Positions 26,201-62,322 of a stretch of 64,000 nucleotides of DNA are shown here, in pieces. The notes under the pieces were generated by a model. The model was given only the letters and a program-made list of their open reading frames with translations. It was not told where the DNA came from and made no database searches. Every line of letters starts with the position of its first letter. Positions within the stretch are counted from its first letter, which is position 1. A program made the position numbers and the translations under genes. Source of the DNA: Amphiscolops sp. MND2022 (taxonomy: Eukaryota). The stretch spans positions 61,568,001 through 61,632,000 of the forward strand of contig OZ076409.1 in NCBI GenBank assembly GCA_964187785.1, read 5' to 3'.

Positions 26201-28564
26201 CAGATTTTTTTTCGCAATCAGTTTTCCTCATCTATTTCCGGCGTCCAGTCAGTCCCATTTGACATCTTTCTTCAAAAGCTTTCTCATTCTGTCGGGTTTT
26301 TTTCGATAGATTGTTAATGAATTTCGAAAGGTGTTGTATGGAGCCCAGAAAAGACTTCAGTTCTTTTACATTTTTCGGTGCTTCCAGTTTGGTTATGGCT
26401 TCTGTTTTGTCTTTAATTGGTTTGACGCCGTTTTGATTAATGTGGTAATCAAGCCAGGTTAGTTTTTCTTGAACAATTCTGTTTTCATCTCACTGGCTGA
26501 TATCCGGCGTTTTGCAATTTTGTGAGAACTTCTCGCACCTCTTTTTCGTGATCTTCGATGTTACCGTTAGTCACACAAATAATTTAATCTAGCCAGGCCG
26601 GTGTTTTATATTCCAACACGGCGTCTATATGTTCTTGAAACACCGTGGGAATATCCGATAAGCCGTAAAAACCCTGCTTGAAACGGTAATGTCCGGTAAA
26701 GTCTCCTCCAATAGTTGAGAATACACAATGTTTAGCGGCTTCTTTGGATAGTTTTGCCTGGCCGTACGCGTAATCCAAGTCGATCTGTGACATCCAGATC
26801 TTTCCTTCGCCTTTGGTAATTTTGGCGGAGACTTTGCTAATTAGCACTTCGGTATCGCTGCCCTTCTTTTTATACATGCTTCGATTAGTTTTCTTGAATC
26901 CACTGCTATTTTGACTGACTTGTCTTTTTTGATAGTGATGACTGCGGGTGATATAAAACAATTTTCAGTAGTTTTGTCAGCTTTTTCGAGCTGTCCCTTT
27001 TCGATTACTTTTTCTAGTTCTTCGCGAACAATTTTTTGAAAGTGGATGGCTACCGGCCTTCCCTTTTGTTGTATGGGTTCGATGTCTTTTCTCAGCTGGA
27101 TGTCGATGGTGAGATCTCTGATAGTGTGGTTGTTTTTGAATAAATCTTCGTGTTCTTCGATGATTTTCTTTCTTCTTTCTTCTTCTTCCACGTAACGGAT
27201 GACGTTTGTTTTCTTGGCGCCTTGTAATCCAGTTTCCAAATTGTGAAGCCAATCTAAGCCCAATTAAGGTTGAGTGTTTTTGTTTTCTGTTATGAGAATT
27301 GGTAATATCTCTTTGCTTTTTTCCGTTTTCACTTCGACCATCGCTTCACCTTTGAATTTTCTTGGGTTTTTGTTTAAGTCCACAAAAGTTTTTGTTGTCT
27401 TCTTCGTCTCAATTGGATTGATTATCGATGGGATATTTGTCACCGGTGAGCCAGTATCAATAATAAATTCTTTGGCTGGCCGTGGACCAATAGGATTGTT
27501 TTGTAAAAATCGACTCAGTTAATACCGTTGACGGATTGAATATGATCGGTTTCCGGCCATGGCTCGGTATTGCTGTCCGATGATACTGCTTCGGTTACTC
27601 GGCTGACGGTCTTGGATTTGCACACTTTGGCAAAATGTCCCATCTTTTTACAGTTGTTGCATTGGGCTTTCCGTGCCGGATAAATATGATCTAGTGACCA
27701 GTTCGGGTTTCCGCAGAAGCGGCAGTTTCGGTTTGAAAATTTTTTCTTCTCGTTGAATTGGGTTTTCCGCTTTCGTGTTTGCTTTGTATGACCGATCAAT
27801 TCGGAGGATGTTGAGCTACTTGTTGAGTCTTTTCTGGCCTTTTCGATTTTTGGTTTCTTGTCTCCGTATTTTTGGTTGTAATTGTCGAGTTCTATGGTTT
27901 CCAGTACCAGTTGTATTTTCAATGGGCCTTTAATAAATTTGTCACGGGCTCTTTTGTCTTTGATGATGGCCGCGAATTTGTAGGTATTAATTACTTTCGC
28001 TGTGCTATTGTTGAAGTCGTATTTTTCAATGTCCACCAGTCTTTTCCAGTATTCATCCATTGTTTCATTGTCATCTTGTTTCATGTTGAAGAACTGGGCC
28101 CTACTGTGGAATACATTTCTCACTGGAAGAAATGTTTTCTTGAATAATGTCAATAGTTCTTGTAGGTTGACATCTTTCAACTCTCGACCCCATTGGCTTC
28201 TCATGATTTCGTGTTTGGCCTTTGGACCCAGTGCCCAGATGACGTCACCTTTTATGTGATTCACCGTATGTGGGTCCATATATTCGATTCCCGCGTGGAT
28301 GATTTCGTCAAGGTTTCGGTTGTATGTCAAATGAACATACTCCGTTATTTGTTCCCACCACATCTCGGGGTTGGTCTTTGTGAGATCTGTTTCCCTGTGC
28401 TATAAAATCTGGATTTTGTATTTACTTTTTCCCGCTCGTTCGGATGTTGTTTGATTGTTGGTTGTTCTTGTTGATTGTTCCGATGACATCGGTCCGCATT
28501 CCGTTGAATTGGGATCGGTTTTGTTGTTTTCCATGGTTTTTTGTTCAGATTGTTAACTGCGCCA

Positions 28565-28780
28565 TAAAGTAAGTTAAAGAAACAGAAGGGATTAATACAG
28601 TGAATTAAAATGATACGATGTTAGGATAACTATTCGTATCTAGATGTCTAAGCAGTTACATCAGTCTTTACACAGTCTTCTTCTATCATATATGTATGGG
28701 ATTGCATGACTTCAGAATAGTAGCAGGTACTTGGAATGTTCTTTTTAGGTTGGCCATGAACTTATTTTTTTCATGCCACA
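28565..28780 (-). repeat. 5' LTR of the 22990-28780 element
   Basis: Near-identical to 22990-23213 and abuts the PBS. Confidence 0.9.
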
Positions 28781-41077: not shown

Positions 41078-41733
41078 ATGTTTTCATAACTGTAGTGGCA
41101 TCCTTAAAGAATGTGACTCAGATGTCACAAGTTGAAACTATTCTCAATTCTAATTGGTTGAGCAGGGACAGCTTTTCAAAACCTTATCTTTTCAAGATGT
41201 TTCAAGATCATTTCGAAGGGAGCATGGTCCAAACTTGGAAAAACTAACATTTCAATAGTTTTGTTCATAAGTTCAAGATTCCACTGTGCGCTGTATCTTC
41301 ACTTATAAGTATACGCATACGGCACTGTCAATGGGAAATCGTTCAAAAGTTAACAAATGACGTATATCTTTTAAATTAAAAAGTCTGATCTACAGAAACA
41401 TTTTTAAAACGTTTTCCATATGGTAAAAACGAAAATCAATCTGTCAGCCGCTGTTTTTTTTTTCAAATTTTGTTATGTTCAAATTTTACATTTTAAAAGA
41501 GGGGTTTTCCACAGGTTTTAAGATCAAAGATATTTGAACTGTTTTTAAATAAAAGAACTTAAAATGGAAAATGTTTCAGCCTGAGGAAACCAAGTTTCTA
41601 CCATTTTCGGTTTTCATTCTACCAAATTTTGTACAATTTCCTACGACTGAACATTTACCTGCCAAGCATATATTTTCATAGAATGATTTAAAGTCTTCTA
41701 AATGAATTAACCAAACAAAATATCTAAGGTTAC

Positions 41734-43465
41734 TGTCGCAGGCTGCCGCCTGTGACGGTACATTAATAACGACGTCAGCGGAAAATCAGGAAATCGTCCC
41801 AGGTACCCTACCCACGTTTTAAACTTTCCCTTACTGAAACTTATATTTACTAGTTGATCACATTCATTTTACTTATTCAAGTGCATTTTCACATAATTGT
41901 TCATGATATTAGTCTGTTAAAATTACGATTTGGAGCTATCCAAATCAAGTTGTGATTGAAATTGTAAAAGGTAGTTGTTGAAATTAATCAAAGCGGTAAC
42001 GTACAATAAGCAAGTTAATCGCGAGAAGGAAACGTGTTCAAGTAAGAAAACGTCCCTTCTCGGCGATGTAACTTTCAGCACGGTTATTAGCCAATCAGAG
42101 CTCTCCTTTTTACTAATTATGAGTGCTTTATTTATGGTGGCCGGATATGGCCAATTGACTAAGCGGCGCTAATTTGAATCAGTCCCACAGTCAAATGGAC
42201 AGCTCCGGCCAATTCGAGCTTAATGATGCTTTTGTTACATAATTGGATCAGTACTTACGCGGAGCTATTAGAATCATGTTTTTAGACTAAATGAATACGG
42301 TTGTGACGTTTTGATGTTTGTATACCTTTGATTTGGATAAAGGGACGATTATGGCCTTTTACCATGTTCTTCATATGTGCAATACATGTTATGAATTTGG
42401 GCCTATTCTGGCTTTGATATGCGAGTGTATTTTCGTGAATACCAATGCAATATTAGGATTCCATACATAGTAATACATTCCGTTTTTAGCTTAACATGCA
42501 GTAAACTTGTGCCGGCACGTGCCTTCATTTTACGTTACTATAAAATATGCAAATTGTGGTATTTGTTTACATCACACATTAAGCGGTCTTAACCGATAAA
42601 TTGTTTGAAGTTGCTACTTAAGATGATGACTCTGAATTCCATTCCTTAAATGTCCCCCGGAAATATGTAGTTGTCGGGGATTTTCTTATGATGATTGTAA
42701 AATCCTATGATTTGTCTTGATCAAACTATGTAAAAAATGTGTGTGTCATCCCTTTAGGGGTATAAATACCCGTACCCCTGCAGGAAGACTCATACTTTGT
42801 ATTTCTCTTCATTTGATAAAGACGTTCATAATACAAACGGTTTCACTGTTAACATTTCGGAATTGATAATTCAAGTATTCAATCCGGTTCGGTCTTAATG
42901 CCTACTACAAGAAAGCAAAAGAAAACAAGGAAATCTAGAGGATTAGAGATTCTCTCTGACATTGAAAACCTTGACATAATGTTAGGTGAAAATCACTTCA
43001 ATGACATGGGGAGAGACGAAAGTCTCGATGGAACTTCCATTAGAAGACAGGAAAGTGTTACAAGCAATAACTTAGAAAATGAGGAAATGAATCTCCATTC
43101 TGATCATAGAAATCCCGAAACTGGGACTAGTGCCGGTTACGACCGAATCACAGCAAGTATAGATTCTCAAGCTGAGATCAATAAGTTATCGTGTGAACTA
43201 AACTCTAGAATATCTAGAGAGATGGATGAGATGATGAACAGTGTTAGTTCTCAAATCCAGAGAGCCATAAGTGATGCCATCAATAACCAAGTTTTGCCAC
43301 AAATTCAAAACGTTATTATGGCCGGTTCAGGACAGGAGACTAGAAGGGGATGGGAGAGATCTGACGAGAGACCGGAAAGTTATTCCGAAGTTCAACACAA
43401 CGCGAAAACTAGAACTACTCTCAATAATGAACATGGTGATAAAACACAACGTAATGTTCATGACA
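41734..43465 (+). repeat. 5' LTR (1732 bp)
   Basis: Direct repeat of 52797-54528. About 9 substitutions spotted by eye, no indels. Confidence 0.97.
42761..42768 (+). promoter_or_regulatory. Putative LTR TATA box
   Basis: TATAAATA within GGGGTATAAATACCC, about 135 nt upstream of the gag ATG. Copy at 53824. Confidence 0.6.
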
Positions 43466-44592
43466 TGGTGACAGGAGACAACGAATCTCCAAATCCAGTT
43501 CCTGAGTTTCTCACAGGACGCATCTCATCCCGAAATCATCTCGACAGGTCCTTCGAGGACGTCAACCTCAACACGACGATCCCAGCACAACAGAGAATCG
43601 CTACGGCTATTGACTCCGACCCTATCACTCGACTGGCAGACGTCTTGACTACAATGCAGAATAGACCGACAGCCCAACAACTTACCATACGCCCAGTCAA
43701 CTCAAATACCATGACATTCGATGGCAAAAGTGAGAAATTCGATTTGTTCGAAGACCTATTTCACACTATGATCAAGATGCAGCCAGAAATGACTGAGCAA
43801 ATGAAGATCAATCACTTCCACTCTTTATTGAGGAAGAACGCTCTTCAAACGTTCAGAAATATCAGCTCAAGCAACCGACAAACTCTAGAGGACGTATTAG
43901 TCATCTTTAGACGGAAATACGTCAAGCCCGAGTCACAGGCGACTGCCAAACATAAATGGCACCGTCTGGTCTTCGATCCCAACACGATGAAACTGCCTGA
44001 CTTTCTCGAAGAATTAAACCAAGGAGCCGAGAAGGCGTTTGGTGATCATGCGCAGAAAATGATTGACAGCTTGCTTTACGCAAAACTGCCACCAAAACTG
44101 AAGCGGTCCGTCAACATGGCCAGATTAGAAAATGGCTCATACGATGAGATAGTTGCTCATTTGGAGAGAGAATTAGAGCTTAACGCCCTCGAGGAGTCAG
44201 ATGACCTACCGATGGCCACAATGACCTCCTCGACTACGAAACCTAAAACCCCTCTGTCCACAGGGCAACTGTCCGATATCACTTGCAATTATTGCAAGGA
44301 AAAGGGCCACATGGTCAAGGACTGCGAAAAACTGAAAAAGAAAAAAGAAAAGGATGCCCAACAAGGCAAGTCGACGCAGAAGAAAACATATCCGGAGTGT
44401 GGCATTTGTGGGAAAAATAACCACCCGGAGGAGAGATGTTGGCAAGGCGCTGGTGCACATCTTAAACCCAAACGCACTAGACCTGAGGACTCAACTGACA
44501 ACAAGCCCAATCCCAAGGCTCAGAAACCTCAGACCAAACCGACATCATCGGGCTCCCAATCCTCATATTCTGATGACGAGTCAAAAAACTAA
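42898..44592 (+). CDS. gag: Gag (564 aa), initiating inside the 5' LTR
   Basis: Intact ORF. Capsid-like region from TFDGKSEKF, two knuckles CNYCKEKGHMVKDC and CGICGKNNHPEERC. Confidence 0.92.
   Translation: MPTTRKQKKTRKSRGLEILSDIENLDIMLGENHFNDMGRDESLDGTSIRRQESVTSNNLENEEMNLHSDHRNPETGTSAGYDRITASIDSQAEINKLSCELNSRISREMDEMMNSVSSQIQRAISDAINNQVLPQIQNVIMAGSGQETRRGWERSDERPESYSEVQHNAKTRTTLNNEHGDKTQRNVHDMVTGDNESPNPVPEFLTGRISSRNHLDRSFEDVNLNTTIPAQQRIATAIDSDPITRLADVLTTMQNRPTAQQLTIRPVNSNTMTFDGKSEKFDLFEDLFHTMIKMQPEMTEQMKINHFHSLLRKNALQTFRNISSSNRQTLEDVLVIFRRKYVKPESQATAKHKWHRLVFDPNTMKLPDFLEELNQGAEKAFGDHAQKMIDSLLYAKLPPKLKRSVNMARLENGSYDEIVAHLERELELNALEESDDLPMATMTSSTTKPKTPLSTGQLSDITCNYCKEKGHMVKDCEKLKKKKEKDAQQGKSTQKKTYPECGICGKNNHPEERCWQGAGAHLKPKRTRPEDSTDNKPNPKAQKPQTKPTSSGSQSSYSDDESKN
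43466..43477 (+). promoter_or_regulatory. Primer binding site, embedded in the gag reading frame
   Basis: TGGTGACAGGAG directly after the LTR-terminal CA. Close to the tRNA-Leu-type PBS TGGTGTCAGGAG; tRNA identity not verified. Confidence 0.8.
44583..44589 (+). promoter_or_regulatory. Putative -1 ribosomal frameshift heptamer A_AAA_AAC
   Basis: Immediately before the gag stop. The downstream protease frame is -1 relative to gag. Confidence 0.7.
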
Positions 44593-47500
44593 CTTCGCCA
44601 CGACTCCAATATAACGAATTAATATCTGTCCGACAATACATCAGATCGGACCCTCCAACACAAACTTTCCACCAATACAATTAACAATTGATGGGCTATC
44701 CCTCTGTTGTCTGGCAGCAGCAGATGGAAAAAGCCACCATCATCACCTACAATAACACCCATTTGTTCCAGAAACCAATTCCTGTTTGGGACCCTGATCA
44801 CACCACCACCTTCACTACCCGATTCAGGCCCATTCCACTAATCGATGATTACAACCCGACATACATCGACCCAGACTATGGCAGAGATCCCTACTGGGAG
44901 ACCGAGCTTTACAACCAAGATTTACTGCAATTCCAATATGTCCTAGACGATATTGAACATTATAATAGAACAGCCCACGAGAACCCTCCAATTACCCATA
45001 ACAAGAAAACAAGAGCGCTAATTGAAAACTGGCAAATGAATGATGGCACAAACCATCCAGTGTTCCCAAACCCATTGGGGACCGAGACCCATGACAGCAA
45101 TGTTGAACCCATACCACAATCATTGCTAGACGAGAAACAGTTCCAGAATGTCTTAATCACTAGAGACGGTGAACCAGACTGTTTACCCCTGTCGACTAAC
45201 ATCAATCTCAAATGCAAGAAACGCATGTTGTACTTCCTAATGGACTTTGGGGAATTGACCATAGATGGACTTATTGACACTGGAGCGCTGTCCAGTGCAA
45301 TTCCCGAAATGGACCTCCGGAAAATTCGACTTTTATCTCCACAATCTGTTATCCGGGAAGGTCCGCCTCCGAATTTCCAAATAATGGTCGCTAATGGGCA
45401 ATTGGAAACTCCTAAGAGTACAATAGAGCTCAAATTCGAAGTTGGTGACATTGAGTTCCATGAAATCTTCATAGTGATGGAACATCTGACAGGTCCGATC
45501 ATTGGACTAATGTTCCTTCAAAGAAACCATACAGTGCTGGACATGAGACAAGGGATACTGAATTTCCCGTTCTTTTCGATGCAGCTCAAAACAGCTGATC
45601 ACAAGTATTCAAATGTATTAGAGCCAATTCTCAACCCTATTGAGATAACCATTCCACCAAATGATAAAGTCCTAATTAGGACCAATTCCCTACTCTACCC
45701 TGAGAATGCTGTCACTGGAATTTTGCAACCGAGCGACCTTCTACATGAAGAAGGCGACATCACATTTTGCCCAGCTTTGGTCACTCTGAATGACGGCAAT
45801 ATACTGATACCAGTGAACAACTTCACAGACCACCCTTATAAACTCAAAAAGGGACTTCATATTGCCAATTTCTCTGTCATGACGCCAGAACAGATGAAGT
45901 ACGTCAAACCGATAGATCCGGCATCAACCTGGCACCTTCTACAGAATGACCAGGAGCAGGCAGCCCACTATGTCAGCAGTCTCATCAAGACCAATAGAAA
46001 TCCGCAAAACTCTGAAAATTATTGGTTCCCAACTCCAGAAAACCCCTGGAAATCCGGAGGAACACACACCTATACAAAAACGAATCCTTCGAGAATTACA
46101 GGCCTTACAAGACCTAGAGACACTTGACCCCACCAAAGATGAAGACTCACGTGCATAATTCTTAGAAAACTTCGATTGGAAAGATTCCACCCTTACTCCT
46201 GAAGAGAAGGAGAAAATAGAGGAATTGTTAGTGGAATTCCATGACATCTTTGCACGACACCGATTTGATATAGGCATGAACGAGGACTTCAAGGTGAAAC
46301 TGACGCCTAAAGACGATTCCCCAGCCTATAGCCAAAGCCTTCCAGCTCCTATCAATCTGAAGGAGGACATCCTAGTCGAATTAGCCATGTTACACAAATA
46401 TGGCATCATCACCACCCTACCGTTCTCGAAATATGCGAGCCCAATATTCGCACAAAAGAAACCGAACGGAAAACTCCGACTCTTGGTTGACTTGAGAAAA
46501 ATCAACAACCTCATCTCGGATGATTATATCAACAACAATCATCCCGTCAGTACGCTAGTTGATGCCGCCCAACACTTGGCAGGCAAAAAACTGTTCTGTA
46601 AATTAGACTGTTCGCAGGCATACCACTGCCTACCAATGGCTGACCAACGTTCAATCGAAATGTTGGCTTTCAATTTTGCCAGTCGCACATTCGCCTACAG
46701 ACGTTTGGCACAAATCCTTAGTCGGTCACTATCCGCATTCTCGAGTTTCATGAGGGAATACCTCGACAAAGTCATCAAAGCGGATCAGTGTGCCCAGTAT
46801 GTGGACGATATCGGCATCGCAGCCAATGATGTTGACCACCTCATGACGAACCTGAGAGCTACATTCAAATGCATTCAGGAAGCAGGCCTTAAGTTAACAA
46901 TGCACAAATGTCATTTCGGTGCAAAAGAAATCGATTTTCTCGGACGGACTATTACCCCACAAGGCGTCAAACCCCAGAAACAGAATGTGCAAAACTTTCT
47001 GGAAAAGACCAAATTCCCGAAGTCGAAAAAGGCTTTACAGCGCTATTTGGGATTCCTAAACTACTACAGGAATTATGTCCCAAGACTTTCAGAACGCCTT
47101 GCTCCATTCTACAAGATGCTGAAGAGTGACGAAAAGGTCCTAGTATCGAAGGAATTAGTCCAGCAATTTGAAGAAATCAATAGGGCGCTAGACAAATGTT
47201 GCGACTTGGCCCTACAACAACCCATTCCGAACAAACAAATAGCACTAATGACTGATGCAAGTTTTGGTGCAGCCGGATACGCGGTCCTAATCGAAGACGA
47301 CCCAAGCCAGAAATTTACGTCACACAGAAAATCGTATGCACCAGTCGCATATGGATCAAAAACTTTCACCCCAGCGCAGATAAAGATGTCAATTTATGCC
47401 AAAGAATTCCTTGCAATTTATTTTGCATTCAAAGAATTCGGACATATATTTTGGGGTGCGCCGAAACCGGTCATCATCCTTACAGACAATAAAGCTGTCA

Positions 47501-49790
47501 CGAGATTTTTCCAAACAAAAATAATACCCCCAGCCCTGTGGAACGCGTGTGATTATGTCATTCAGTTCAACTTTGTCATAGCACACATCCCAGGAGCACA
47601 AAATACAGCTGCCGACTATTTGTCCCGATTGGAAGCAGATCCAACGGACAAATTGGTGATGAAAATTCGTGAAGATTTACAAACACTACCCATCGAAATC
47701 AATGTCCAATCCGCAGGGGTATCGCAAGAAGAACAAATCTTCTACACCAATGACGACGATGAGACAGAAGAACAGTTGTGGGCAAGAAAAGAAGCAATCA
47801 GGAAAAATCCAGCAACTGATGAACCCACTGTTACTATACAAACTCTGTCAACAAATCTAGTCAAGCAACACCCCGATATACAAGTCCGATTGAGGAAAAC
47901 GAACCAGATCATTATCGAGCAATCCAAAGATGCGGTACTACAACAATTGAAAGCAAAATTGCTTCATGAAGAGTATTCAGAAAATCTACTGCACCAGGAT
48001 GCCCGATATAGACATTACGCAAACAATCTGGAACGAATTGTACTAAAGGACGAAATCCTGACAAGGCAATATTTCGATGAAACAGGGAATGTTAAATACC
48101 ATCAAATTTTACTCCCGCAACATTTACTCCAGGAATTGCTCCAATCTCTTCACGAGACAGCGCATAAACATCCTGGGATTTCAAAAATGCTGCAGGAAAT
48201 TCGACAGAGGTATTACTACCCTAGCATGGCTAAACACGTCAAAAAGTGGGTAGAAGGGTGCGAACAATGTGCCAGAGACAAAAGAGTCCCTAACGCAACG
48301 ATCACACCTGAGCTGCTTAACTTGCCCGAATGGGACCTCGGACCTGAAGACGCCATGCAAATAGACCTATTGCCGAATCTTCCCCCAAGTGGTGGGTATG
48401 AAAACGTCTTAACAGCAATTGATGTATTCTCCAGATATTTGTTCGCCTATCCCCTTACGGACGCATCAGCGATCAATGTAGCAAAAGCGATCATTGACAT
48501 CATGACTAAACACTCATATCTACCAACGACTCTTATCACTGATAAAGGTACTGCATTTACTTCTACAATTATTGCGGAGGTTACGCAGATTTTGGGCATC
48601 ACACTCAAAAGTGCAACAACAAAACACCCGCAGACAATTGGGAAATTGGAGCGAACTCATGCCTCATTGAAAACAAATATCAAAATGGCATGTGGAGAAT
48701 ATCGCCGACAATGGCACAAATACTTGCCATTAGCAGTACTAAATCATAATACTACCTACCACGCCAGCATCGGTTGCGAGCCAACGAGGGTATTTCATGG
48801 AAGAATTCCATTTAATATTTTAGATCACAAGCTTGGAAATAATCCAAACGAGCAAATTAACCCCACAACCGAATTTGCTGAAGAAATCCAAAACCGGACA
48901 AAAATCCTGATTGACAAAACGAAGCAAAACATTATGCAATCGTATATCAAGTACAAAGAATATTACGACCGCAAAGCAAAAGCCGCTCCACTAAAGGAGA
49001 ACGAATACTGTTTTGTCTTACAGCCGAAAGCGGACAATCAAGGATCGAAAATTCCATTCCGCGATTATCGTTGGGTTGGACCATTTGTAGTCCAAAAGGT
49101 TTTGCCAAATGAAAACTATATAGTACGACGAATCAATACGAACAAAACTCAAATTTTGCATCGCATTCGTCTTAGAAGGTTTGTCCCCTATCAACCGCTT
49201 GAGGACAATTCCCGAGAACAACAGTTGCAGACAGATGAAGAAATTGTCATTCCGCAAGATGATTTATACGTCATAACGTGGGAAACCGACTTTGGCGAGC
49301 AACTAGTTACACGAGGCAACGAGACTATTCCGACCAGCATGCCGAACGGCCGAACGTGCCAGAAGCGAATACAAATGACGTAACCGAGAATGAACCGGAT
49401 TACATAATCACGAGTGACGAAACAAGTTACGCTGACCACGCGGCGCGGAACCGGATTGAAAGATTAAATCATGACGTCACAAAAAGGAATGAAGCTAGTG
49501 AAGCGGCTACCAATGACAAATCTGATTGGACGAATCCGACCGTTTCCCCAAAAAACCAAGAAAAATCATTGCCGAATACGGCAGATAGACCGGAAAACGA
49601 TGAAAATTTTACAGAAAGAAACTTGACGAATGAAAACGATACACAAAAATCTCCAAACAGGGGGGATGATATTATCGTGCCCGAAATATCCGAAAACGAT
49701 GCTAGAAATGAGAGTCTGAGCCCTAGAGGAGGGAAATATAACCTCAGACCTAACCCTAACCCAAACTACTCAGAAGACTTCAGATACTAG
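44589..49790 (+). pseudogene. pol: Pol (protease, dUTPase-like segment, RT, RNase H, integrase, acidic tail) with few lesions
   Basis: LIDTGA, KLDCSQAY, YVDD, MTDAS, ILTDN, HHCC, QIDLL / ITDKG / LERTH, WVGPF, C-terminal KYNLRP. Stops at 44682 and 46156, frameshifts near 46045 and 49350. Confidence 0.93.
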
Positions 49791-50025
49791 GGAAGACTGA
49801 ATTCAGTTCAGGAGATGAGTCCCGATTTGGATTTTCTTTTCTTTTATCCTTTAGCCCCTTGAGAGTCAGTATCTTTTGAATAAATAATGGGACGTATGAA
49901 AGATGCCTTACAGAGGTAACAATACGGGATCAAGAAATCAAAAGAAGGAAAGTATATAAATAAAGGCAACAAAACAAAAAATCAACAAAGTTTACAGTTC
50001 AAAGTACATACATACATATGTACAG

Positions 50026-51226
50026 TTAGTCTTTAGATGAACCAGGCTCACTGACTCCAGCAGTGGATGACGAAGAGGCGCGAGAAGCGCGACGTTCCAT
50101 TTTCCTTCGCTTAGTGCTAGTAGGGGCTTTCACAGCAGACATATCAGCTACGGAACATTGATCTTCTGGCGCACCACGGACCAGAGATTTTTGAGGGGTG
50201 GAAAGAGCTGCCCGGTAGGAAGCCAACAATGACTTATAAATCTTCGAACGCCCGAAATTGTCCACGTACGTCCAAGGATCATAATCGGGAGCAAATGCAG
50301 AACGCCCGAAAGAAGAAGAGAAGTCAATGAACTTGGCCAGATTCCCATCATCACTACAGAAAGCAACTGCGTCACGCACGGTAGCTACGTAACTTTGACT
50401 GGGAAGAATGACGTCTGTCAATCTGCTATGACGTCCAGAAGTGGAAACTGTCCCGAAAGTGACATCAGGATACGTGGGGCTAACAGACGTAGCGCACAAG
50501 CAACACAACTTGAACAAATAGAATAGGCAGCTACGATTACGGAGGAATTCCAGCTCGGACAGGAACTCAATTCAGGTAGCTGAGACTCAGAGGCCTCGAT
50601 GACCTTCAAGGCAGACTCTAAAGCTGACAAGTCAGCTTCTTGGACTTCCTCGTCATCAGACTGGATGGGCGTACTCGACCTTCGGTTCTCAGCAGTCGTC
50701 AATACTAATTCAGGAGGGTCATTGACTTGTTCTTGGCTCTGCAGCAGGGCAGACGCAGGATGTTTCTCTTCGTGTGTAACGATGCGTTGTGTCTGTTGCA
50801 TCCGTTGGAGCATAGATTCAGCATATGATGTTACATCTGGGTCACTGTCAGCACTGTGAGTAGAGGTGATATCATCAGTACGGCTTCGAGACAACTCTTG
50901 GGACACACTCGGATTTTGGATTTGTGGTCCAGCTTCGGTCGGTGGATTAGCCGCTGAAGTAGTGGTAGCAGGTCTGACTGGTACATCGGCAACTTCAGTT
51001 GTTTGATTCTCTAAATAAAAAGAGATAAAGTTTGGCGGTATGCTTCCTCGAAAAGAATCCATTCTACCGCATTAGAAACCTTCCGGAAGTACTTGAGAAT
51101 TTGAACAAAATGTGCTGTCACGCGCTTATTAGTGGAAACAGGAAGCTTATTGTGAACGTATTTAGCCCTGATCAAGCTAAGCTAGTTCAATATACGAAAA
51201 CCAGACCAACCTGTGCTTGAAGACAT
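50026..51226 (-). pseudogene. Antisense accessory gene of the element (putatively spliced, ~335 aa, one frameshift)
   Basis: Exon 1 ATGTCTTCAAGCACAG (51226-51211), GT-AG intron 51210-51011, then the 214-aa frame, switching near 50572 into the 163-aa frame ending at 50026. Confidence 0.6.
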
Positions 51227-52099
51227 GTTTTTCCCGGGTTGTTGCTCCAAAAAGAGTTGTTTTGAACTGACGATTGTGAGATGTGGATGGTGGCCTTTCA
51301 CGGTCGAGGATGAAGGGGAATAAGGATACTCCGAAGAGAATGCGTTGGACGTAGACAAATAGATGGCAATTGGGAGATTGCAGATAAAGAAAACAAATGT
51401 AAGGTGATCGGAATTAAATAGAATTGGAATTGGATGAAGCAATTGAAAAGTTGGAGTTCGTGGCTGAAGAAATTACCAGACTAATATTATTTGATTATTT
51501 ACATATTTAAAATGTACACGGAGTCTGCCAGCGAAGTGTACAAAGGACTTTGTTATTTACAGCTTATTTAGTTAGAGGCCAGTTATGGCCGTTTGCCCTG
51601 TTTTGTTTTACCGTTTGGTCCAGTTACCCTTAGTTAGAATTTTCGCCATCTTGAATTACTTAGATTTATTATTTTCGCCATTTTTATTATTTAATTTTAC
51701 AATTTATCGAAGCTTAACGCTGATTGGATGAAGCCATTACGAGAAGTTTTGGTGACGCGTGCCGCTAATTGTTTACAAGCGACCCGACCTGTTAATTACC
51801 CACTTGAGACGGATGTAGTTGATATTCATAAGTCGAGCGCCATTCACACCTCTTCTAGTGATGACACTGATGAGGGGTAAACATCAGGCTATCAAAGGGA
51901 ACCGACCAATTAAAGAATTCCATTCAGAAAAGTTTACGACGAATCGGGACGATTAACCTAAGATTCTCCCGCCGAACTGGGAAGTTCGGAAAAAGGCCCG
52001 ATTCGACTAAATTCTTGAAACTGATAAATTCATTCTACTACAAACGTCTCTTCAATACAGTCGCTACGAGCAGCTTCAAAAATAGCAAAAAAGATAATC

Positions 52100-52885
52100 A
52101 TGAGCAAATACAACTTAGCTAGAAGATTGTTCGATCTGGAGGAATACGACTCAGATGAGTCTGAAAAATCAGTAATATACATTTTCAGCAGCGAGGGAGA
52201 GTCTTCGGACTAGGAAACCGACTGCTCCACGGACACGGAGCAACTTTTTGCAAGAATCGAAAGGAAAGTCACCTCCAGCCCCATGTTAATCGGGGGCCGC
52301 ATAATGACTGTGGAGGAACCCTCAGAAGATGAACCAGAAGCTGGCCCCAGCTCTTCCCAGACGCAAACAGATGTAACTCCAAAATTTGACCACAGGTACT
52401 TTGACCAGGAGATGTGTTATGCTCCCCCAAAGAAGTTGGGAAAGTCAAGGATAGAAATTTGCAAGACTCTATTACCAGTGCCTGAGTCACCCATGTCACC
52501 GCCTGACCATGAGAGAGGACCAAGTTTGGACACCCCCCTGATGCAGCCTACAATGGGTGGTTCTCACGCGTCGTTTCATGTACAGAACACAAGGCCGTAC
52601 GAAGACGTGAGCAATAAACTGTACTCTGGTTGTATGGTGTGTGGCAGATCCTCAGAAGCAATAAAGAAAGAGAAAGTAGAATGGTATGTTGCAAGGTCCA
52701 AGCCGCGAGGAGAGCCCGAGTACATCATGAAAATCAGAAGGGAGGCATATGAGAACGGTCTCAACGCCGGGGCATTCCTCTTCATAACACCCGCAGTGTC
52801 GCAGGCTGCCGCCTGTGATGGTACATTAATAACGACGTCAGCGGAAAATCAGGAAATCGTCCCAGGTACCCTACCCACGTTTTAA
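52100..52885 (+). pseudogene. Accessory ORF-X (~261 aa, one internal TAG at 52211), ending 89 nt inside the 3' LTR
   Basis: ATG at 52100 is in frame with the 200-aa ORF. Acidic N-terminus, CMVC motif, C-terminal VSQAAACDG...PGTLPTF. The C-terminal peptide is conserved in the solo LTR. Confidence 0.7.
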
Positions 52886-54528
52886 ACTTTCCCTTACTGA
52901 AACTTATATTTACTAGTTGATCACATTCATTTTACTTATTCAAGTTCATTTTCACATAATTGTTCATGATATTAGTCTGTTAAAATTACGATTTGGAGCT
53001 ATCCAAATCAAGTTGTGATTGAAATTGTAAAAGGTAGTTGTTGAAATTAATCAAAGCGGTAACGTACAATAAGCAAGTTAATCGCGAGAAGGAAACGTGT
53101 TCAAGTAAGAAAACGTCCCTTCTCGGCGATGTAACTTTCAGCACGGTTATTAGCCAATCAGAGCTCTCCTTTTTACTAATTATGAGTGCTTTATTTATGG
53201 TGGCCGGATATGGCCAATTGACTAAGCGGCGCTAATTTGAATCAGTCCCACAGTCAAATGGACGGCTCCGGCCAATTCGAGCTTAATGATGCTTTTGTTA
53301 CATAATTGGATCAGTACTTACGCGGAGCTATTAGAATCATGTTTTTAGACTAAATGAATACGGTTGTGACGTTTTGATGTTTGTATACCTTTGATTTGGA
53401 TAAAGGGACGATTATGGCCTTTTACCATGTTCTTCATATGTGCAATACATGTTATGAATTTGGGCCTATTCTGGCTTTGATATGCGAGTGTATTTTCGTG
53501 AATATCAATGCAATATTAGGATTCCATACATAGTAATACATTCCGATTTTAGCTTAACATGCAGTAAACTTGTGCCGGCACGTGCCTTCATTTTACGTTA
53601 CTATAAAATATGCAAATTGTGGTATTTGTTTACATCACACATTAAGCGGTCTTAACCGATAAATTGTTTGAAGTTGCTACTTAAGATGATGACTCTGAAT
53701 TCCATTCCTTAAATGTCCCCCGGAAATATGTAGTTGTCGGGGATTTTCTTATGATGATTGTAAAATCCTATGATTTGTCTTGATCAAACTATGTAAAAAA
53801 TGTGTGTGTCATCCCTTTAGGGGTATAAATACCCGTACCCCTGCAGGAAGACTCATACTTTGTATTTCTCTTCATTTGATAAAGACGTTCATAATACAAA
53901 CGGTTTCACTGTTAACATTTCGGAATTGATAATTCAAGTATTCAATCCGGTTCGGTCTTAATGCCTACTACAAGAAAGCAAAAGAAAACAAGGAAATCTA
54001 GAGGATTAGAGATTCTCTCTGACATTGGAAACCTTGACATAATGTTAGGTGAAAATCACTTCAATGACATGGGAAGAGACGAAAGTCTCGATGGAACTTC
54101 CATTAGAAGACAGGAAAGTGTTACAAGCAATAACTTAGAAAATGAGGAAATGAATCTCCATTCTGATCATAGAAATCCCGAAACTGGGACTAGTGCCGGT
54201 TACGACCGAATCACAGCAAGTATAGATTCTCAAGCTGAGATCAATAAGTTATCGTGTGAACTAAACTCTAGAATATCTAGAGAGATGGATGAGATGATGA
54301 ACAGTGTTAGTTCTCTAATCCAGAGAGCCATAAGTGATGCCATCAATAACCAAGTTTTGCCACAAATTCAAAACGTTATTATGGCCGGTTCAGGACAGGA
54401 GACTAGAAGGGGATGAGAGAGATCTGACGAGAGACCGGAAAGTTATTCCGAAGTTCAACACAACGCGAAAACTAGAACTACTCTCAATAATGAACATGGT
54501 GATAAAACACAACGTAATGTTCATGACA
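52797..54528 (+). repeat. 3' LTR (1732 bp), carrying a second copy of the gag 5' end (53961-54528, stop at 54414)
   Basis: Direct repeat of 41734-43465. Confidence 0.97.
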
Positions 54529-56402: not shown

Positions 56403-56636
56403 TGTTATATACGGTTCAATCCGATTCTTACGACCTCTACCGAGATTCGGTTCACTTACATGAAAACTGTCTAGTGTCTACATACCAGCTGGGGTTGTTT
56501 ACAAACAAACTCAATCAAACGTTAAATTACATTAGATACATTTATACGAAGTGAAAAGCTGAGATATAGATTTGAACTAGAGATCTTTATTTTACAATAT
56601 TCTTTTCTCTTAAACTTAGATTACCAGAATACAACA
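56403..56636 (+). repeat. 5' LTR
   Basis: Direct repeat of 62089-62322. Confidence 0.95.
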
Positions 56637-56689
56637 TGGCGCAGTCAGCCAATTTTTAAAACAATTGAACAAAAACTTCTTAATACAGA

Positions 56690-59600
56690 ATGGCGGAGAA
56701 AAACATAGTCCCGAACCTCGAAGCGAAAGCCAGAGACGGGAATCCGGTATTCACACCGAGACAATGGCTAGAGAGGTTCCGGCAGTTCTGTAAACGGGAA
56801 CACAAAATAGACATCGCACCGCTACTGAAAGGAGAAGATATAACAGACACCGGGTGGACCGGAAAAGAACAATTGATTCGAGATTTTCTGTGGGGAGTGG
56901 GACCGGAAGCACTCTACCAAATAACTAGGGCCGAATATAAAACAGAACCCGACAGTATAAAAGTGAAATACTTAATCCGATTGTTCACCGAATTTTACAT
57001 GCCGAAAAGAAACACGTACCATAACCGCGGAGACTTCTTCTGGGCAAAACAGACAGAAGAGGAAACACCCGAGGAATTTTGGAGACGGTTGATCGAAATC
57101 GAAAAAGAATGTAACTTCAATACCATCTCGGCAGAAGAATTGTTGATATCAAAATACATGACCGCAATCACCGATAAAAAAAATTACGGGATGAAATAAT
57201 GAAAGAGAAAACATTGGAACTGAAGAAAGTAATCAAATTGATCAAACAAAACACATACGAGAAGAAAAATAAAAAGAACACAATACCGGAAGCTTTGATA
57301 TCAACAAAAGAAAAACAAATAATAAAGGAAGAACCGATACAAAGAATGGAACGATTCGGTGTCAGACCGAAAAGTAAAAACTTCGGAAACCGAACATGCA
57401 GATTCTGCGCCGCACCAAACTGGACACCGATGCACAAATGCCCCGCACTAGATGTTAACTGTAACAAATGCGGTAAGAAAGGACATTATGCGAAAGCATG
57501 CAGACAGAAGACAAACAGCAACCGAACCGTGAAAAGACTAACCGAAGACGAACCGAACGAATCAGACAGATCATCAAGTGAATCCGAAGAGAGCATTCAC
57601 CACATTAAAGAGATAAAGAAAATCGACGAAACAAATAAACACTTCACCACAACGCTCATAATCAATGGAGTAACAAAAGAATTTATAACAGACACCGGAT
57701 CACCAATATCACTAATGCCACCGGATGAAAGAATTAAAAAATCAACCGAAATACAGAAAATAACAAACCGATACCAAGATGTGAATAAAAACGAAGTAAT
57801 GTTTCGGAGAAAAATTCCGGTAAATGTCGAATACGAAAATAACAAACAAAAAATGGAGATTTTTATAACCGAAAGAACAGATATGACACCATTACTCGGA
57901 ATGGATTGGATGAAGAAATTCAAACTAACGATCAGCAAAATACAATTGGCCGACAACAACCAATCAGAACGCGAGAAAATATTCAACAAATTTCCGGACC
58001 TATTTTAAAACAACGAAACGATAAAGGACACCGAAATAAATATTCAATTAAAACCAGGACACTATCCGGTAAAACAAAAAGCAAGACCGATACCATTACA
58101 CCTTCAAGAAGACGTCGGACGTGAACTAGGAAAACAAATAAAATCCGGACACTTAGAAAAGATAAAAGACGTAGACGAAGATTGTTTTGTATCTCCGGTA
58201 GTCAAAACCGTGAAAAGTGACAAATCAGTGAAGATAGCACTAGACTCAAGAAAAATGAACGATAGTTGCATTAAAATGAGACCTCACATGCCGAATATGG
58301 AGGAACTACTAAACCAAATTTCGGTAGAAATTTCACGCGACCGAACGGTACAACTATTTATATCAAAAATTGAATTAGACTATGCGTACGGACAAATGAA
58401 ACTATCCAAAGAAACAAGCCGACAATGCGTATTTGCCTTAACCGGAGGAAAATTTAGCGGATATTACCGATTAAAAAAGGGTTTTACGGACTTGCCGACA
58501 TACCCACGATATTCCTAGAAAAGATCGACCGAACACTCGCATATTGCACATCGGCGTGGCTGGACGATATAATTGTAGTAACACGGGGAAATAAACAAGA
58601 CCACGAGAAGAAATTATTTGACGTATTGAATAAACTGGAAAAAGCCGGCTACCGAGCAAGCAAAAAGAAATCAGAATTCTTCATGAACCGAATAAAATGG
58701 CTGGGACACGAAATCTACGAAAACGGAATTAAACCGAACGAAGAAAAAATAGAAGCCAAACAAAAATTAAAACCACCGGAGAACACAAAAGAACTGAAAT
58801 TTCTCGGGGCGATACAATACATGGCAAAATTTTTACCGAAACTTTCGGAACAAACCGACCGATTACGAAAATTACTGAAAAAGAATGAGCCATGGATATG
58901 GGGAGATGAACAACAAAAAGATTTCAAAAAAATAAAACAAATGTTAACCGAAGGCCCATGCTTGGCACACTACGCAAAAACAAAGATAATTCAGTAACAA
59001 CGGATGCCAGCACCACCGGACTGCGGATAACACTATGGCAGAAACAAGATGACGGATATACGAAACCGATAGCATTCGGGAGCAGATACTTGAACGATAC
59101 CGAAAAGGAATATTCTATCGGTGAATTAGAATTACTAGCAGTAGTGTGGGGACTCGAAAAATTCCGATTTTTTTATACGGTAAGAAGGTGTATCTTTATA
59201 CCGATCATCAAGCACTAGAGCCATTAATCAAGAGAAACCGGAGCAACAGACAGTATAGCGCGCAATTAACAAGATGGTTAGACCGTCTAACTCACTTTGA
59301 TATATCAATACAGCATATCGCAGGCAGTAATTTGAAATTCACCGACTACCTCAGTAGAAATCCGGTAGGGGGAGCCAAACCCGAAGAAATCTACGACGAA
59401 GAATACGTCATCAACATACTTACCGAACAAGCAAAATTGAATATAAAATACGGACCAATATTCGCTGCCCAATCAGAATGTAAGAAAGTGAAAACCGAAA
59501 TAAAGAATGATACGGCCGAAGAACAAATTGAGAAATGCGGTAGCCAATCACACACGAATAGAACATTCGAGAACAAATACGGCGTGAACAAAAATAAACG

Positions 59601-61917
59601 AAACGAAGAAGCTACATCCGGGCAGTCCGAAATTAGCGCGCTAGAGCCAAGTTATTCAAAGAAAGAGAGTCAAAATGCAAATCGAATTACAAAAGTTCAA
59701 AATTCAATTACGGAAATTACCGAAATGGATCGCGAAAATTTTTACCACTGGGGCGCCACACGCGAAATTATGGAGATTATTCGCAGACGGAATAATAGCA
59801 CAGAGACACGCCGACTAGTAGAGCAACGAAATGGATTATCCCGACCAGGAACATTACGACGTCGGTATGACCACTACACTCAAAGAACGGTATTCGCTCC
59901 AACGAGACCCAACAAAAGAAGCCGAGAGGAAATTGCCGAGATAGACGCAGAGATCATGAGGAGAGCCAATCGATTGGGCGGCGGATACCGACCAATAGCC
60001 GAGGAAGAAGAAGAACCGGAAGAAATACGGGAAGAAGGCGAACTAGAAATCGAAAATGCCGAGACGGAAGAAGACAGCGTCATAATGCGGGGCGACAATC
60101 TACCAATAGTAGATCTTAGCAAATACAATACAGAAGGAAAACGGGCGCATTATATACAAATAAACCACATCGTGGGAAAATTAACAAGCAACAAAAAGAT
60201 TACCGAAGAACATATCAAAAAAGCAGAATTTGAGTTCATGATGGACTTAAAAACACTCATCGCAAAAACCGATGCAATCGATCCGGAACTAACCCGCGTC
60301 AGAACCAGCATGCGGAGAGAAGATCGAGAGACAATTCCGGATGGCTACCGAAATGCATTCGACAAACTATCAATCAGATGGGGATTGATCTTCGTCGATG
60401 ACCAAATCGTGATACCCATCGACTTGAGACGAAGACTCCTGGACATCCTTCATTTCGGTCACTCCGGTATAACAAAAATGATGTCAGAAGCACGCATATT
60501 CTGGTGGCCCAGAATGAAACAGGATATCGAGAACAAAGTAAAAGATTGCACAGCCTGCTTTGCATCAGGTAAAAACCTTAAATATCAATCACCGAAAAAA
60601 CACTACGGAAAATTAGAAAAACTAACCGAACCCGGCCAAGAATTACAAATTGATTTTACCGGAAAATTACATAACAAAAATATACACGGAGAAGTACAGA
60701 TACTAATAGCGGTAGATAGATTCAGTAAATGGCCGACCGTAAAAATATGTAAAACGGCGGAGACCAAAGAAGTCACAAATTTTCTATCGAGTAATTTTAA
60801 CTTATACGGAATACCGGAAAAGATCAAATCCGATAAAGGAGGAGCGTTTGTTTCGAAAAATTACCGAGAATTTTGCAAGAACCGAAATATTGAAATTGAA
60901 TATTGCACCCCCCGAGTACATACGGGAAACGGAGTAGTAGAAAGAGCAATACAATCATTGAAAAACTTAATAATAGCAAGTTTGGAAGACGGTATAAGTT
61001 TAACCGAAAGTGTAAACAGAGCACTACATGTAATGCAATTTCACAATACATACCGGACTAAAGTTAACGCCATTCGAACTACACCACGGTAGAAAACCGA
61101 GAACCGAATTAACGAATATCGTTAAGGACGGAAAATCATACCTATCTAATTGGTCAGAACTGACTGTTTCAGCGCCGAACAGACCAAAGATTCCCATATA
61201 CGTTGGCCGTGATGCGGACGAGGATATTACAAACCACATATTTATGGCGCGAACCAAAACAGAGGAGAAACACCTCGCCGAAAGATCGAAATCACCGAAG
61301 AAGAAAAATTCGTTTAGATACCCTTTTTACTTTGTTGAAAAGAATCATAACAAAAAATCATTGGAAGGAAAATCTCAAAAAAAATACAAACCGCTATAAG
61401 CGGAACCGAAAGTACTATAAAAACAGACTCCGGGAAAATAACTAACCGAAAATTCATTTCGGAACCACTGTTTCAGACCGAGAGGAAAAGCAGAAAAGAA
61501 CCGGTAACAAACGCAACCGGTGAAATCAACCCCAAAAATTGACACTGCCTACGCGGACTGGACGGGAAATACGGCCGTTGGGATGAAATCCTTCGGGACA
61601 TCCTGAACGGTAAATTGAAAATCGTCCAAAATAAAAAGCGGGCAGAAAGCGAAACCGACGATGACGACGAGGATGAAGACGATGAAGAAACGCCGGAAGA
61701 AACCGGAACACCGATAGTATATGACACATCCAAAAGAGACTGGAGATACGTGCCAATACGGACTAACCCAGAGGAAGACACGCTACAACTACACACCGAC
61801 AGCGAAATGCCGGGTGAGAATTCAGAATTACAAAAAGACGCTCTAACCGAAATAGTAAAAAACCGAATAGATACGGTAGCATACCCTATACGGAAAACTT
61901 CTGGGGATGAAAATTAA
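56690..61917 (+). pseudogene. Gag-Pol polyprotein of the 56403-62322 element
   Basis: Twin knuckle CRFC..H.CPA...CNKCGKKGHYAKAC, TDTGSP, ELDYAYGQ, WLDD, TTDAS, ELELLAVVWG, LHFGHSG...CTAC, QIDFTG / KSDKG / VVER. Several stops and frameshifts. Confidence 0.92.
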
Positions 61918-62088
61918 ATGTCTAAAACACATTGTATATATTACAGGTCCAATGTGGAACAGACACAAAGAGACGCCAAAGCCGGAGACAATCCAGAAGC
62001 CAGCAGACTTCCTACCCGAGGAAGAATCAACACCAGGCCCCTCAAACCGAATGTAGAAAACTACACGAGAAAAGAATAGAGGGGGAAA

Positions 62089-62322
62089 TGTTATATACGG
62101 TTCAATCCGATTCTTACGACCTCTACCGAGATTCGGTTCACTTACATGAAAACTGTCTAGTGTCTACATACCAGCTGGAGTTGTTTACAAACAAACTCAA
62201 TCAAACGTTAAATTACATTAGATACATTTATACGAAGTGAAAAGCTGAGATCTAGATTTGAACTAGAGACCTTTATTTTACAATATTCTTTTCTCTTAAA
62301 ATTAGATTACCAGAATACAACA
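62089..62322 (+). repeat. 3' LTR
   Basis: Direct repeat of 56403-56636. Confidence 0.95.

What the first reader, a model, noticed from the sequence alone, without database searches (positions are those of the whole stretch)
42898..43480. Gag initiates 568 nt inside the LTR and translates through the PBS
The ATG at 42898 follows a TATA box at 42761. The frame is open across the LTR end and PBS (CAT GAC A|TG GTG ACA GGA = HDMVTG). Every 3' LTR and solo LTR therefore carries a promoter plus an open ~190-aa basic/coiled-coil-like N-terminus that runs into flanking host DNA. This could yield truncated Gag or fusion proteins. In this 3' LTR a TGG>TGA change stops it at 151 aa.
Basis: partly seen in the sequence, partly recalled or inferred. 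Interest (0 to 1): 0.75.

Follow-up and report, generated by a model that had tools for sequence, protein, structure and literature searches.

The report
Swappable Gag head inside retrotransposon LTR
In a large family of animal jumping genes, the first third of the capsid-protein (Gag) gene lies inside the terminal repeat, where it is conserved as protein-coding sequence and is swapped between related subfamilies, likely during reverse transcription, while the spare copies left in downstream and solitary repeats mutate like junk DNA and so are likely by-products rather than host fusion genes.

Summary
Confirmed. A young Ty3/gypsy element (1,732-bp LTRs, 99.5% identical) has a 564-codon Gag frame starting 568 nt inside the 5' LTR and reading through a tRNA-Leu primer site. 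The layout is lineage-wide. Of 30 copies picked on the capsid core alone, 25 are open from the same Met, and all 30 keep the junction phase. Subfamilies only about 37% identical in the head share it. LTR codons are under purifying selection (dN/dS 0.05-0.24). A TATA box and an ATG-poor leader precede the start. The head holds a 60-residue helix predicted to self-associate (0.75 versus control 0.01). Heads are exchanged between subfamilies, with breakpoints in the first codons and at or just past the primer site, as template switching in reverse transcription would give. The host-fusion idea gets no support: 5'/3' LTR differences are neutral (ratio 1.1), and flank tails (median 13 codons) equal chance. 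No RNA run was listed, so the start sites are inferred. Yeast Ty1 has the same layout with about 13 codons. The scan already noted this layout on other DNA of this genome (e1-8580103, e1-9174308) and short versions in other genomes.

The parts
41729..41733 (.). target-site duplication GTTAC, left copy
41734..43465 (+). 5' LTR, 1,732 bp, TG...CA
   Evidence: (1723/1732 identical to the 3' LTR)
42761..42767 (+). TATA box, 137 nt upstream of the Gag ATG
   Evidence: TATA 122-158 nt upstream in 8 of 8 subfamily representatives and in 25 of 25 open core-selected copies
42791..42897 (+). predicted 5' leader, no ATG (start site inferred from TATA spacing)
   Evidence: 1 ATG in 8 leaders against 12.5 expected
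42898..44592 (+). Gag ORF, 564 aa; first 568 nt inside the LTR
42898..43002 (+). conserved head block, codons 1-35: basic start (7 K/R in 15 residues) and LSD.EN.D.MLG motif; also the zone where heads switch between promoter types
43144..43326 (+). residues 83-143, single long helix, predicted self-associating coiled coil
   Evidence: (pLDDT 79-89 over residues 91-140), dN/dS 0-0.11 within the A/D group
43465..43467 (+). junction ATG made of the last LTR base and the first two primer-site bases; internal Met190
   Evidence: same phase in 30 of 30 copies
43466..43477 (+). primer binding site, 12 nt complementary to tRNA-Leu(CAG), directly abutting the LTR and read as codons
43735..44196 (+). 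helical capsid-like core, 98-99% identical in 8 of 8 relatives whose head linkers fall to 30-70%
   Evidence: DUF1759; low confidence model
44281..44325 (+). CCHC zinc knuckle
   Evidence: weak; MLV nucleocapsid, E 5e-4
44583..44589 (+). A AAA AAC slippery-type heptamer just before the Gag stop; pol lies in the -1 frame
   Evidence: present in 7 of 7 representatives; frameshifting inferred
44691..49383 (+). pol region (protease, RT, RNase H, integrase), interrupted in this copy
50418..51062 (-). remnant of an antisense accessory gene; this copy lacks about 3.2 kb that three siblings carry (junction near 50566-50586)
52283..52885 (+). 3' sense ORF (part of a 261-aa ORF in three siblings) whose last 89 nt lie inside the start of the 3' LTR
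52797..54528 (+). 3' LTR
53961..54416 (+). 3' LTR copy of the Gag head, stopped after 151 codons
54529..54533 (.). target-site duplication GTTAC, right copy

Best explanation
This is a Ty3/gypsy retrotransposon lineage whose Gag gene starts 560-650 nt inside the LTR, so the 3' third of the LTR and the tRNA primer site are conserved coding sequence for a Gag head that is predicted to self-associate through a long helix and is swapped between subfamilies, likely by template switching during reverse transcription. Inferred steps: transcription begins about 100 nt upstream of the ATG, behind the TATA box. Ribosomes start at the first AUG (42898) and read basic motif - acidic linker - 60-residue helix - linker, then the primer site, capsid core and zinc knuckle, with a -1 shift giving Gag-Pol. 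The part of the LTR downstream of the start site is copied from the RNA 5' end as strong-stop DNA and duplicated into both new LTRs. Selection on Gag therefore keeps the head open in each new 3' and solo LTR, where it then decays neutrally. When two different RNAs are co-packaged, switches in the conserved first codons and at or just after the primer site move the head as a cassette onto another promoter and another capsid core. The junction is always in frame. Shown by sequence: layout, conservation, selection, mosaics, neutral decay, short tails. Inferred: transcription and translation starts, oligomer state, recombination mechanism.
For: Layout. Thirty loci fetched on the internal core only (the window's copy among them): 25 open from M-P-T-T-R as first Met, 568-592 nt inside the LTR; 5 interrupted upstream; junction phase equal in 30 of 30. 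Fourteen 5'/3' LTR pairs, 12 from subfamilies whose head proteins are 37-43% identical to the window's and 2 closer, put 562-650 nt of ORF inside LTRs of 1.4-1.9 kb. dN/dS of LTR codons 0.21, 0.21, 0.24, 0.22, 0.05, 0.07, 0.09, 0.08 in 8 unsaturated pairs, upper bootstrap bounds at most 0.43. TATA in 8 of 8 representatives (2.5% chance per 40-nt window) and 1 leader ATG against 12.5 expected. Helix 83-143. Three-copy model ipSAE 0.75, best of 3 controls 0.01, at least 97% contact agreement, pLDDT at least 83. The mark was reached by 21 of 30 solved pairs and 0 of 23 single chains; in eukaryotes by 17 of 29 (animals 7 of 16) and 0 of 30. Mosaics: synonymous distances correlate 0.74 between the two LTR-coded halves but 0.16-0.43 across the primer site. 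42 of 83 significant change points among 153 pairs fall in codons 140-219. Among 58 5' copies, two promoter types each occur with two head types and one head type occurs with five promoter types. Intermolecular first-strand transfer that joins R/U5 of one RNA to U3 of another is described in PMC6894440 (passages).
Against: No RNA, ribosome or protein data (one search listed no run). The first ATG has a weak vertebrate-type context (T at -3 in 6 of 8 representatives), and 7 of 25 core-selected copies carry one leader ATG. No poly(A) hexamer sits at a shared position, so the R/U5 border is unknown. Only one element (2 of 10 triplets) switches exactly at the primer site. The other 8 triplets follow the head parent 13-37 nt past it and then switch or are mixed. 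41 of 83 change points lie elsewhere in Gag, and the pairs are not independent. Homology-driven DNA recombination could give the same mosaics. The complex job used three copies, unlike its calibration, and ignored the alignment; long amphipathic helices may score from memory, and the copy number was not tested. The full-Gag model is poor (mean pLDDT 44.8).
Confidence: 0.8

Rival explanations
1. 3' and solo LTRs make truncated Gag heads that act in trans: they co-assemble with full-length Gag through the helix and damp transposition as copy number rises, like Ty1 p22. Head swapping would then be escape from that control.
For: 38 of 43 sampled 3'/solo copies are open through the LTR and keep the promoter; one clean solo LTR with a target duplication and a 221-codon frame was seen (L027). 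The helix is predicted to self-associate. Heads diverge far more than cores. Ty1 p22 is a dominant-negative Gag fragment (PMC4599808, start of abstract in listing).
Against: No expression data. Post-insertion change is neutral, although a collective effect would not select single copies. dN/dS in the helix is low (0-0.11 in the A/D group), not the high value of an arms race.
Confidence: 0.15
2. One reading: LTR heads fused to flanking host sequence are a source of functional chimeric host proteins.
For: The frames do run into flanks, up to 60 codons in the sample, and the family has many copies (150 of 150 scored candidates matched, from 15,929 first-look candidates).
Against: Tails have median 13 codons, equal to random DNA (median 13, p = 0.52). 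5'/3' differences are neutral, stops included. A search for proteins of 1,048-2,990 aa with the Gag alignment found none (weak evidence, as the tool notes). Splicing into host exons was not examined.
Confidence: 0.07
3. The functional Gag starts at the junction Met (43465) or another internal Met, and the LTR frame is a separate or minor product.
For: The junction ATG has a G at -3 and +4 in the window copy, and the capsid core and zinc knuckle all lie downstream of it. The first ATG has a weak context.
Against: No stop separates head and core in 25 of 25 copies that carry the start motif, and the phase is kept in 30 of 30. 17 ATGs lie upstream of the junction Met. Head codons are under purifying selection. 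The junction ATG follows from any CA + TGG join.
Confidence: 0.08
4. The coding layout is as described, but the mosaics come from DNA-level gene conversion or unequal exchange between inserted copies, not from reverse transcription.
For: Breakpoints lie in the most conserved DNA blocks, where any homology-driven process would cross. Other breakpoints occur inside the core.
Against: Mosaic types occur as multi-copy groups, e.g. 3-7 copies of promoter/head combinations. In two mosaic elements checked, both LTRs carry the same new combination (L111/L112 and L113/L114, 99% identical), so they passed through reverse transcription after or during the swap.
Confidence: 0.2

Closest known systems
Ty1 of Saccharomyces cerevisiae (Ty1/copia)
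   Same: GAG begins inside the 5' LTR and the primer site lies in the GAG frame: 5' UTR of 53 nt (PMC3592414, passages), primer site at RNA nt 94-104 'localized in GAG ORF' (PMC4974528, passages).
   Different: By subtraction only about 40 nt (13 codons) of GAG precede the Ty1 primer site. Here it is 187-216 codons with a predicted folded helix. Different superfamily (integrase after RT), Leu rather than initiator-Met primer, LTR of 1.4-1.9 kb.
Ty3 and other Ty3/gypsy elements (Metaviridae)
   Same: PR-RT-RH-IN order, CCHC knuckle, best solved relative Ty3 Gag-Pol (E 7.6e-46), Gag and pol in separate frames.
   Different: In Ty3 the 5' primer-site segment is adjacent to the 5' UTR, contrasted there with Ty1's place in GAG (PMC4974528, passages). 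Here a third of Gag is in the LTR. Siblings are about 14.2-14.4 kb with extra sense and antisense ORFs.
Metaviral Gag N-terminal domains, including the coiled coil of mammalian ARC
   Same: A variable, helical domain in front of the capsid; metaviral N-terminal domains are widely divergent and not matrix-like (PMC10516033, passages).
   Different: No sequence, Atlas or fold match to any of them. That paper's passages do not place such domains inside an LTR.
LTR mosaics made by intermolecular first-strand transfer
   Same: R/U5 of one RNA joined to U3 of another (PMC6894440, passages).
   Different: There the outcome described is mixing of regulatory sequence; here the exchanged segment encodes about 190 residues of a structural protein.
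LTR-overlapping ORFs of retroviruses (MMTV sag, HIV nef); recalled, no call
   Same: Protein-coding sequence inside an LTR. The 3' sense ORF here likewise runs 89 nt into the LTR start.
   Different: Those lie in U3 and are accessory genes read from the 3' LTR. The head here is the start of Gag, read from the 5' LTR.

Membership tests
Ty3/gypsy (Metaviridae) | pol order protease - RT - RNase H - integrase | tested here: met
Ty3/gypsy (Metaviridae) | RT/RNase H closest to Ty3-type enzymes | tested here: met
   best PDB hit Ty3-G Gag-Pol, E 7.6e-46
Ty3/gypsy (Metaviridae) | direct LTRs with TG...CA ends and a short target duplication | tested here: met
Ty3/gypsy (Metaviridae) | tRNA primer site after the 5' LTR | tested here: met
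   12 nt to tRNA-Leu(CAG)
Ty3/gypsy (Metaviridae) | polypurine tract before the 3' LTR | tested here: inconclusive
   short G-rich run in subfamilies B and C; none evident in the window's subfamily
Ty3/gypsy (Metaviridae) | placement in a named clade by RT phylogeny | not tested
   no reference RT set was fetched
Errantivirus-type (env-bearing) gypsy | env ORF after pol | tested here: inconclusive
   no env family hit in the extra ORFs scanned against Pfam; sensitivity limited
Ty1/copia (Pseudoviridae) | integrase upstream of RT | tested here: not met
   RT precedes integrase
Ty1-type layout (works like Ty1) | Gag start inside the LTR with the primer site in the frame | tested here: met
   Ty1
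Ty1-type layout (works like Ty1) | transcription start upstream of the ATG, and translation from it | not testable with these tools
   no RNA run listed; indirect support from TATA, ATG-poor leader and dN/dS
BEL/Pao | DUF5641 after integrase and Pao-type RT | tested here: not met
   absent from this pol, present in a different element at window 265-2043; Gag has only a marginal DUF1759 hit

The most novel reading that the evidence does not exclude
The LTR is an interchangeable cassette of promoter plus Gag oligomerisation domain. Reverse transcription shuffles heads among subfamilies in frame, and the thousands of 3' and solo LTRs express truncated heads that poison capsid assembly of their own head type. 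That gives a built-in, self-scaling copy-number control, which subfamilies escape by taking a different head.
Probability: 0.15. Interest if true: 0.8.

Novelty: new variant of a known kind. Interest (0 to 1): 0.5.

Why it matters
LTRs are treated as non-coding regulatory ends. In this lineage about a third of the LTR encodes a selected protein domain, and its first 89 nt encode the end of another ORF. Ordinary strand transfer, known to mix promoters, here also mixes a structural domain of Gag, which gives a natural set of head/core/promoter combinations for asking what metaviral N-terminal domains do. In practice, LTR dating and annotation that assume neutral, non-coding LTRs will misread such families, and gene callers will report many spurious 190-250-aa 'genes' at 3' and solo LTRs (many such products appear). 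The dramatic reading, host fusion proteins, is not supported.

Tried and rejected
RNA evidence: no RNA holder listed, so no reads were laid; this is no evidence either way. Naming the head domain: Pfam gave only a sub-threshold YpjP hit, the Atlas gave best 0.77, the PDB profile search matched only the zinc knuckle, and the Foldseek search on a low-confidence model gave nothing at E <= 0.001. Longer fused forms of Gag: none scored among 7,429 candidates (weak). Locating the R/U5 border by poly(A) hexamers: no shared position in 8 representatives. I considered reading the breakpoints just after the ATG as proof that R extends into the coding sequence, and rejected it: a switch between two RNA 5' ends during strong-stop synthesis gives the same mosaic. 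dN/dS for the three most distant pairs was saturated or near it (0.26, not computable, 0.32) and is not used. Literature: four phrase searches for a Gag frame starting in a gypsy LTR gave 0, 4, 0 and 0 papers. Of the 4, one was read (PMC11117352 passage: pol, not gag, overlapping an LTR) and three were seen as listings only. The library lacks most subscription papers and Repbase-type records, so this does not show absence from print. PMC11258251 (passages) did not address the point. Searches gave only listings that were not used. A structure job on an antisense ORF never finished. The profile of the antisense protein found no PDB match. Loci for a fourth distant head type could not be cut out. 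No supplements were read.

Full report
Observation. The window holds an LTR element from 41734 to 54528. Its LTRs are 1,732 bp, 1723 of 1732 bases identical, with TG...CA ends and a GTTAC target duplication. An ATG at 42898, 137 nt after a TATAAAT at 42761, opens 564 codons to 44592. Of these 568 nt lie inside the LTR. The frame crosses the LTR end and the primer site as HDMVTG. The 12 nt that follow the LTR are the exact complement of the 3' end of a tRNA-Leu(CAG) gene of this genome once CCA is added. The 3' LTR copy of the frame stops after 151 codons.

What the element is. Pfam places protease, RT, RNase H and integrase in that order, and the best solved relative is Ty3 Gag-Pol: Ty3/gypsy. 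Pol is interrupted in this copy. Three siblings are about 14.2 kb between LTR starts against 11.06 kb here; the missing 3.2 kb belongs to an antisense gene. The host is an unnamed animal genome of 1.07 Gb. All of the 120 closest Gag homologues listed come from one source class without names, so I cannot say whether the layout exists in other species.

Is 42898 the real start? Four tests say very likely. (1) Thirty loci were fetched with the internal capsid core alone as query (the window's own copy is one). In 25 the frame is open from M-P-T-T-R as first Met, 568-592 nt inside the LTR; 5 are interrupted upstream; the phase of the primer site is the same in all 30. (2) Head proteins down to 37% identity start at the same motif. 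Fourteen 5'/3' LTR pairs, 12 from such distant subfamilies, put 562-650 nt of ORF inside LTRs of 1.4-1.9 kb; one pair's upstream border was not a clean TG. (3) Pairwise dN/dS over LTR codons is 0.21, 0.21, 0.24, 0.22, 0.05, 0.07, 0.09 and 0.08 in eight pairs, upper bootstrap bounds at most 0.43, against 0.04-0.14 for the internal part; three further pairs were saturated. Constraint sits in codons 1-35 and 86-145; the linkers are looser (0.23-0.44 in the A/D group). (4) Eight subfamily representatives, mostly unalignable upstream of the ATG, all have a TATA box 122-158 nt before it (2.5% chance per 40-nt window), and their leaders hold 1 ATG against 12.5 expected. Against this: 7 of 25 core-selected copies have one leader ATG, the start context is weak by vertebrate rules, and no RNA run was listed. 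The Met at 43465 arises from any CA + TGG join, and 17 ATGs lie before it.

What the head is. It has a basic start (7 K/R in 15 residues), a conserved LSD.EN.D.MLG motif, a variable linker, and one long helix at 83-143, one of only two confident parts, with the zinc-knuckle region, of an otherwise poor model (mean pLDDT 44.8). Three copies of residues 80-148 scored ipSAE 0.75 against a best control of 0.01, with at least 97% contact agreement and pLDDT of at least 83. The mark was reached by 21 of 30 solved pairs and 0 of 23 single chains, in eukaryotes by 17 of 29 (animals 7 of 16) and 0 of 30. The calibration used two copies, the alignment was not used, and a pass may be from memory, so this supports self-association without showing it or its stoichiometry. 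No known domain matched. Metaviral N-terminal domains are described as widely divergent, ARC's being a coiled coil (PMC10516033, passages).

The head moves as a cassette. Among 28 Gag copies, third-position distances correlate 0.74 between the two LTR-coded halves and 0.16-0.43 between LTR-coded and internal parts. Among 18 dereplicated copies, 83 of 153 pairs have a significant change point, 42 of them in codons 140-219; 41 lie elsewhere, and the pairs are not independent. Examples: L111 and L113 are 94-100% identical from promoter to LTR end and 80-90% after it, while L113 and L153 are 48-81% before and 98-100% after. A second border lies at the start: L138 and L142 are 42-66% identical upstream of the ATG and 88-100% downstream. 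Among 58 5' copies there are 10 promoter types and 6 head types. Two promoter types each occur with two heads, and one head occurs with five promoter types. The switch lies within about the first 30 nt of the ORF in three combinations and near nt 65-70 in one. On the primer-site side one element switches exactly at the site (2 of 10 triplets); the other 8 follow the head parent 13-37 nt further. Intermolecular first-strand transfer is known to join R/U5 of one RNA to U3 of another (PMC6894440, passages). Here that segment is coding, so the same step would shuffle a protein domain in frame. This mechanism is inferred; DNA-level exchange in conserved blocks is a rival. The R/U5 border could not be placed.

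The 3' and solo copies. In 23 5'/3' LTR pairs the head copies differ by 35 synonymous, 123 nonsynonymous and 3 stop changes. That matches neutral expectation (23%, 73%, 4%; ratio 1.11, p = 0.78), at a rate like that of the upstream non-coding LTR (1.26% against 1.06%). The differences are not polarised to one LTR. Of 43 distinct 3'/solo copies (2 duplicates and 2 unclassified loci dropped; all were best-scoring hits, so biased to intact), 38 are open through the LTR, and their tails into the flank are 1-60 codons, median 13, the same as random window DNA (p = 0.52). One clean solo LTR with an open 221-codon frame was seen. So open heads in 3'/solo LTRs are what duplication of a selected segment predicts, and nothing marks them as host genes. 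A collective dominant-negative effect like Ty1 p22 (PMC4599808, start of abstract) is not excluded, as it would not select single copies, but it needs expression data.

Comparison and novelty. Yeast Ty1 has the same layout: a 53-nt 5' UTR (PMC3592414, passages) and a primer site at nt 94-104 inside GAG (PMC4974528, passages), about 13 codons. The present case is in the other superfamily and about 15 times longer, enough for a folded domain. Four phrase searches found no paper describing this in a gypsy element, within a library that lacks most subscription papers. The scan itself noted the layout on other DNA of this genome, one note also reporting head swapping, and short versions in other genomes. 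My selection, swapping and neutrality tests were run before I saw those notes and agree with them; they are not independent support from outside. Verdict: real, a new variant of a known kind; the fusion-protein reading is not supported; interest 0.5.

Noticed in passing
window 50418-51062 (-); L032:928-2973 (-), L031:8755-9930 (-): Siblings carry a conserved antisense gene between pol and the 3' LTR (678-aa first ORF; 220 homologues). It has a zinc-finger-like segment with BED/hAT-type Atlas leads at 0.83-0.84, a lead only. The window copy has lost about 3.2 kb of it at a short direct repeat. Earlier scan notes call it a disarmed hAT transposase; I could not confirm that.
   Followed up: partly
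window 52283-52885: A sense ORF before the 3' LTR (261 aa in three siblings) ends 89 nt inside the LTR. The first 15 or so LTR bases are shared by subfamilies whose other U3 sequence is largely unalignable, so both LTR ends appear to be coding.
   Followed up: partly
window 44583-44592: A AAA AAC directly before the Gag stop in 7 of 7 representatives, with pol in the -1 frame: likely programmed frameshift site; no strong stem right after it.
   Followed up: partly
window 52772-52796: No clear polypurine tract before the 3' LTR in this subfamily, whereas subfamilies B and C have a short G-rich run.
   Followed up: no
window 51600-51850: Between the antisense gene and the sense ORF lie motifs resembling YY1/initiator and CCAAT boxes (names recalled, read), a possible internal two-way promoter.
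   Followed up: no
G000:C6:27815988 and 27830332; G000:C5:67762594 and 67776939: Complete Gag frames about 14.3 kb apart on the same strand, suggesting tandem elements that share an LTR.
   Followed up: no
G000:C8:35587798-35638761: A tandem array of tRNA-Leu-like 3' ends, mostly about 240-300 bp apart; 855 matches genome-wide to the primer tRNA motif. ARAGORN called a tRNA in 2 of the 6 dispersed loci tested.
   Followed up: partly
window 265-2043, about 8084-13896 (-), 22990-28763 (-), 56403-62323 (+): Other LTR elements in the window: a BEL/Pao-type integrase with DUF5641, and three repeat pairs about 5.6-5.7 kb apart, two with gag or integrase hits.
   Followed up: no
window 45600-45900: A segment between protease and RT that by eye resembles a dUTPase-like insert (recalled likeness; no Pfam hit).
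   Followed up: no
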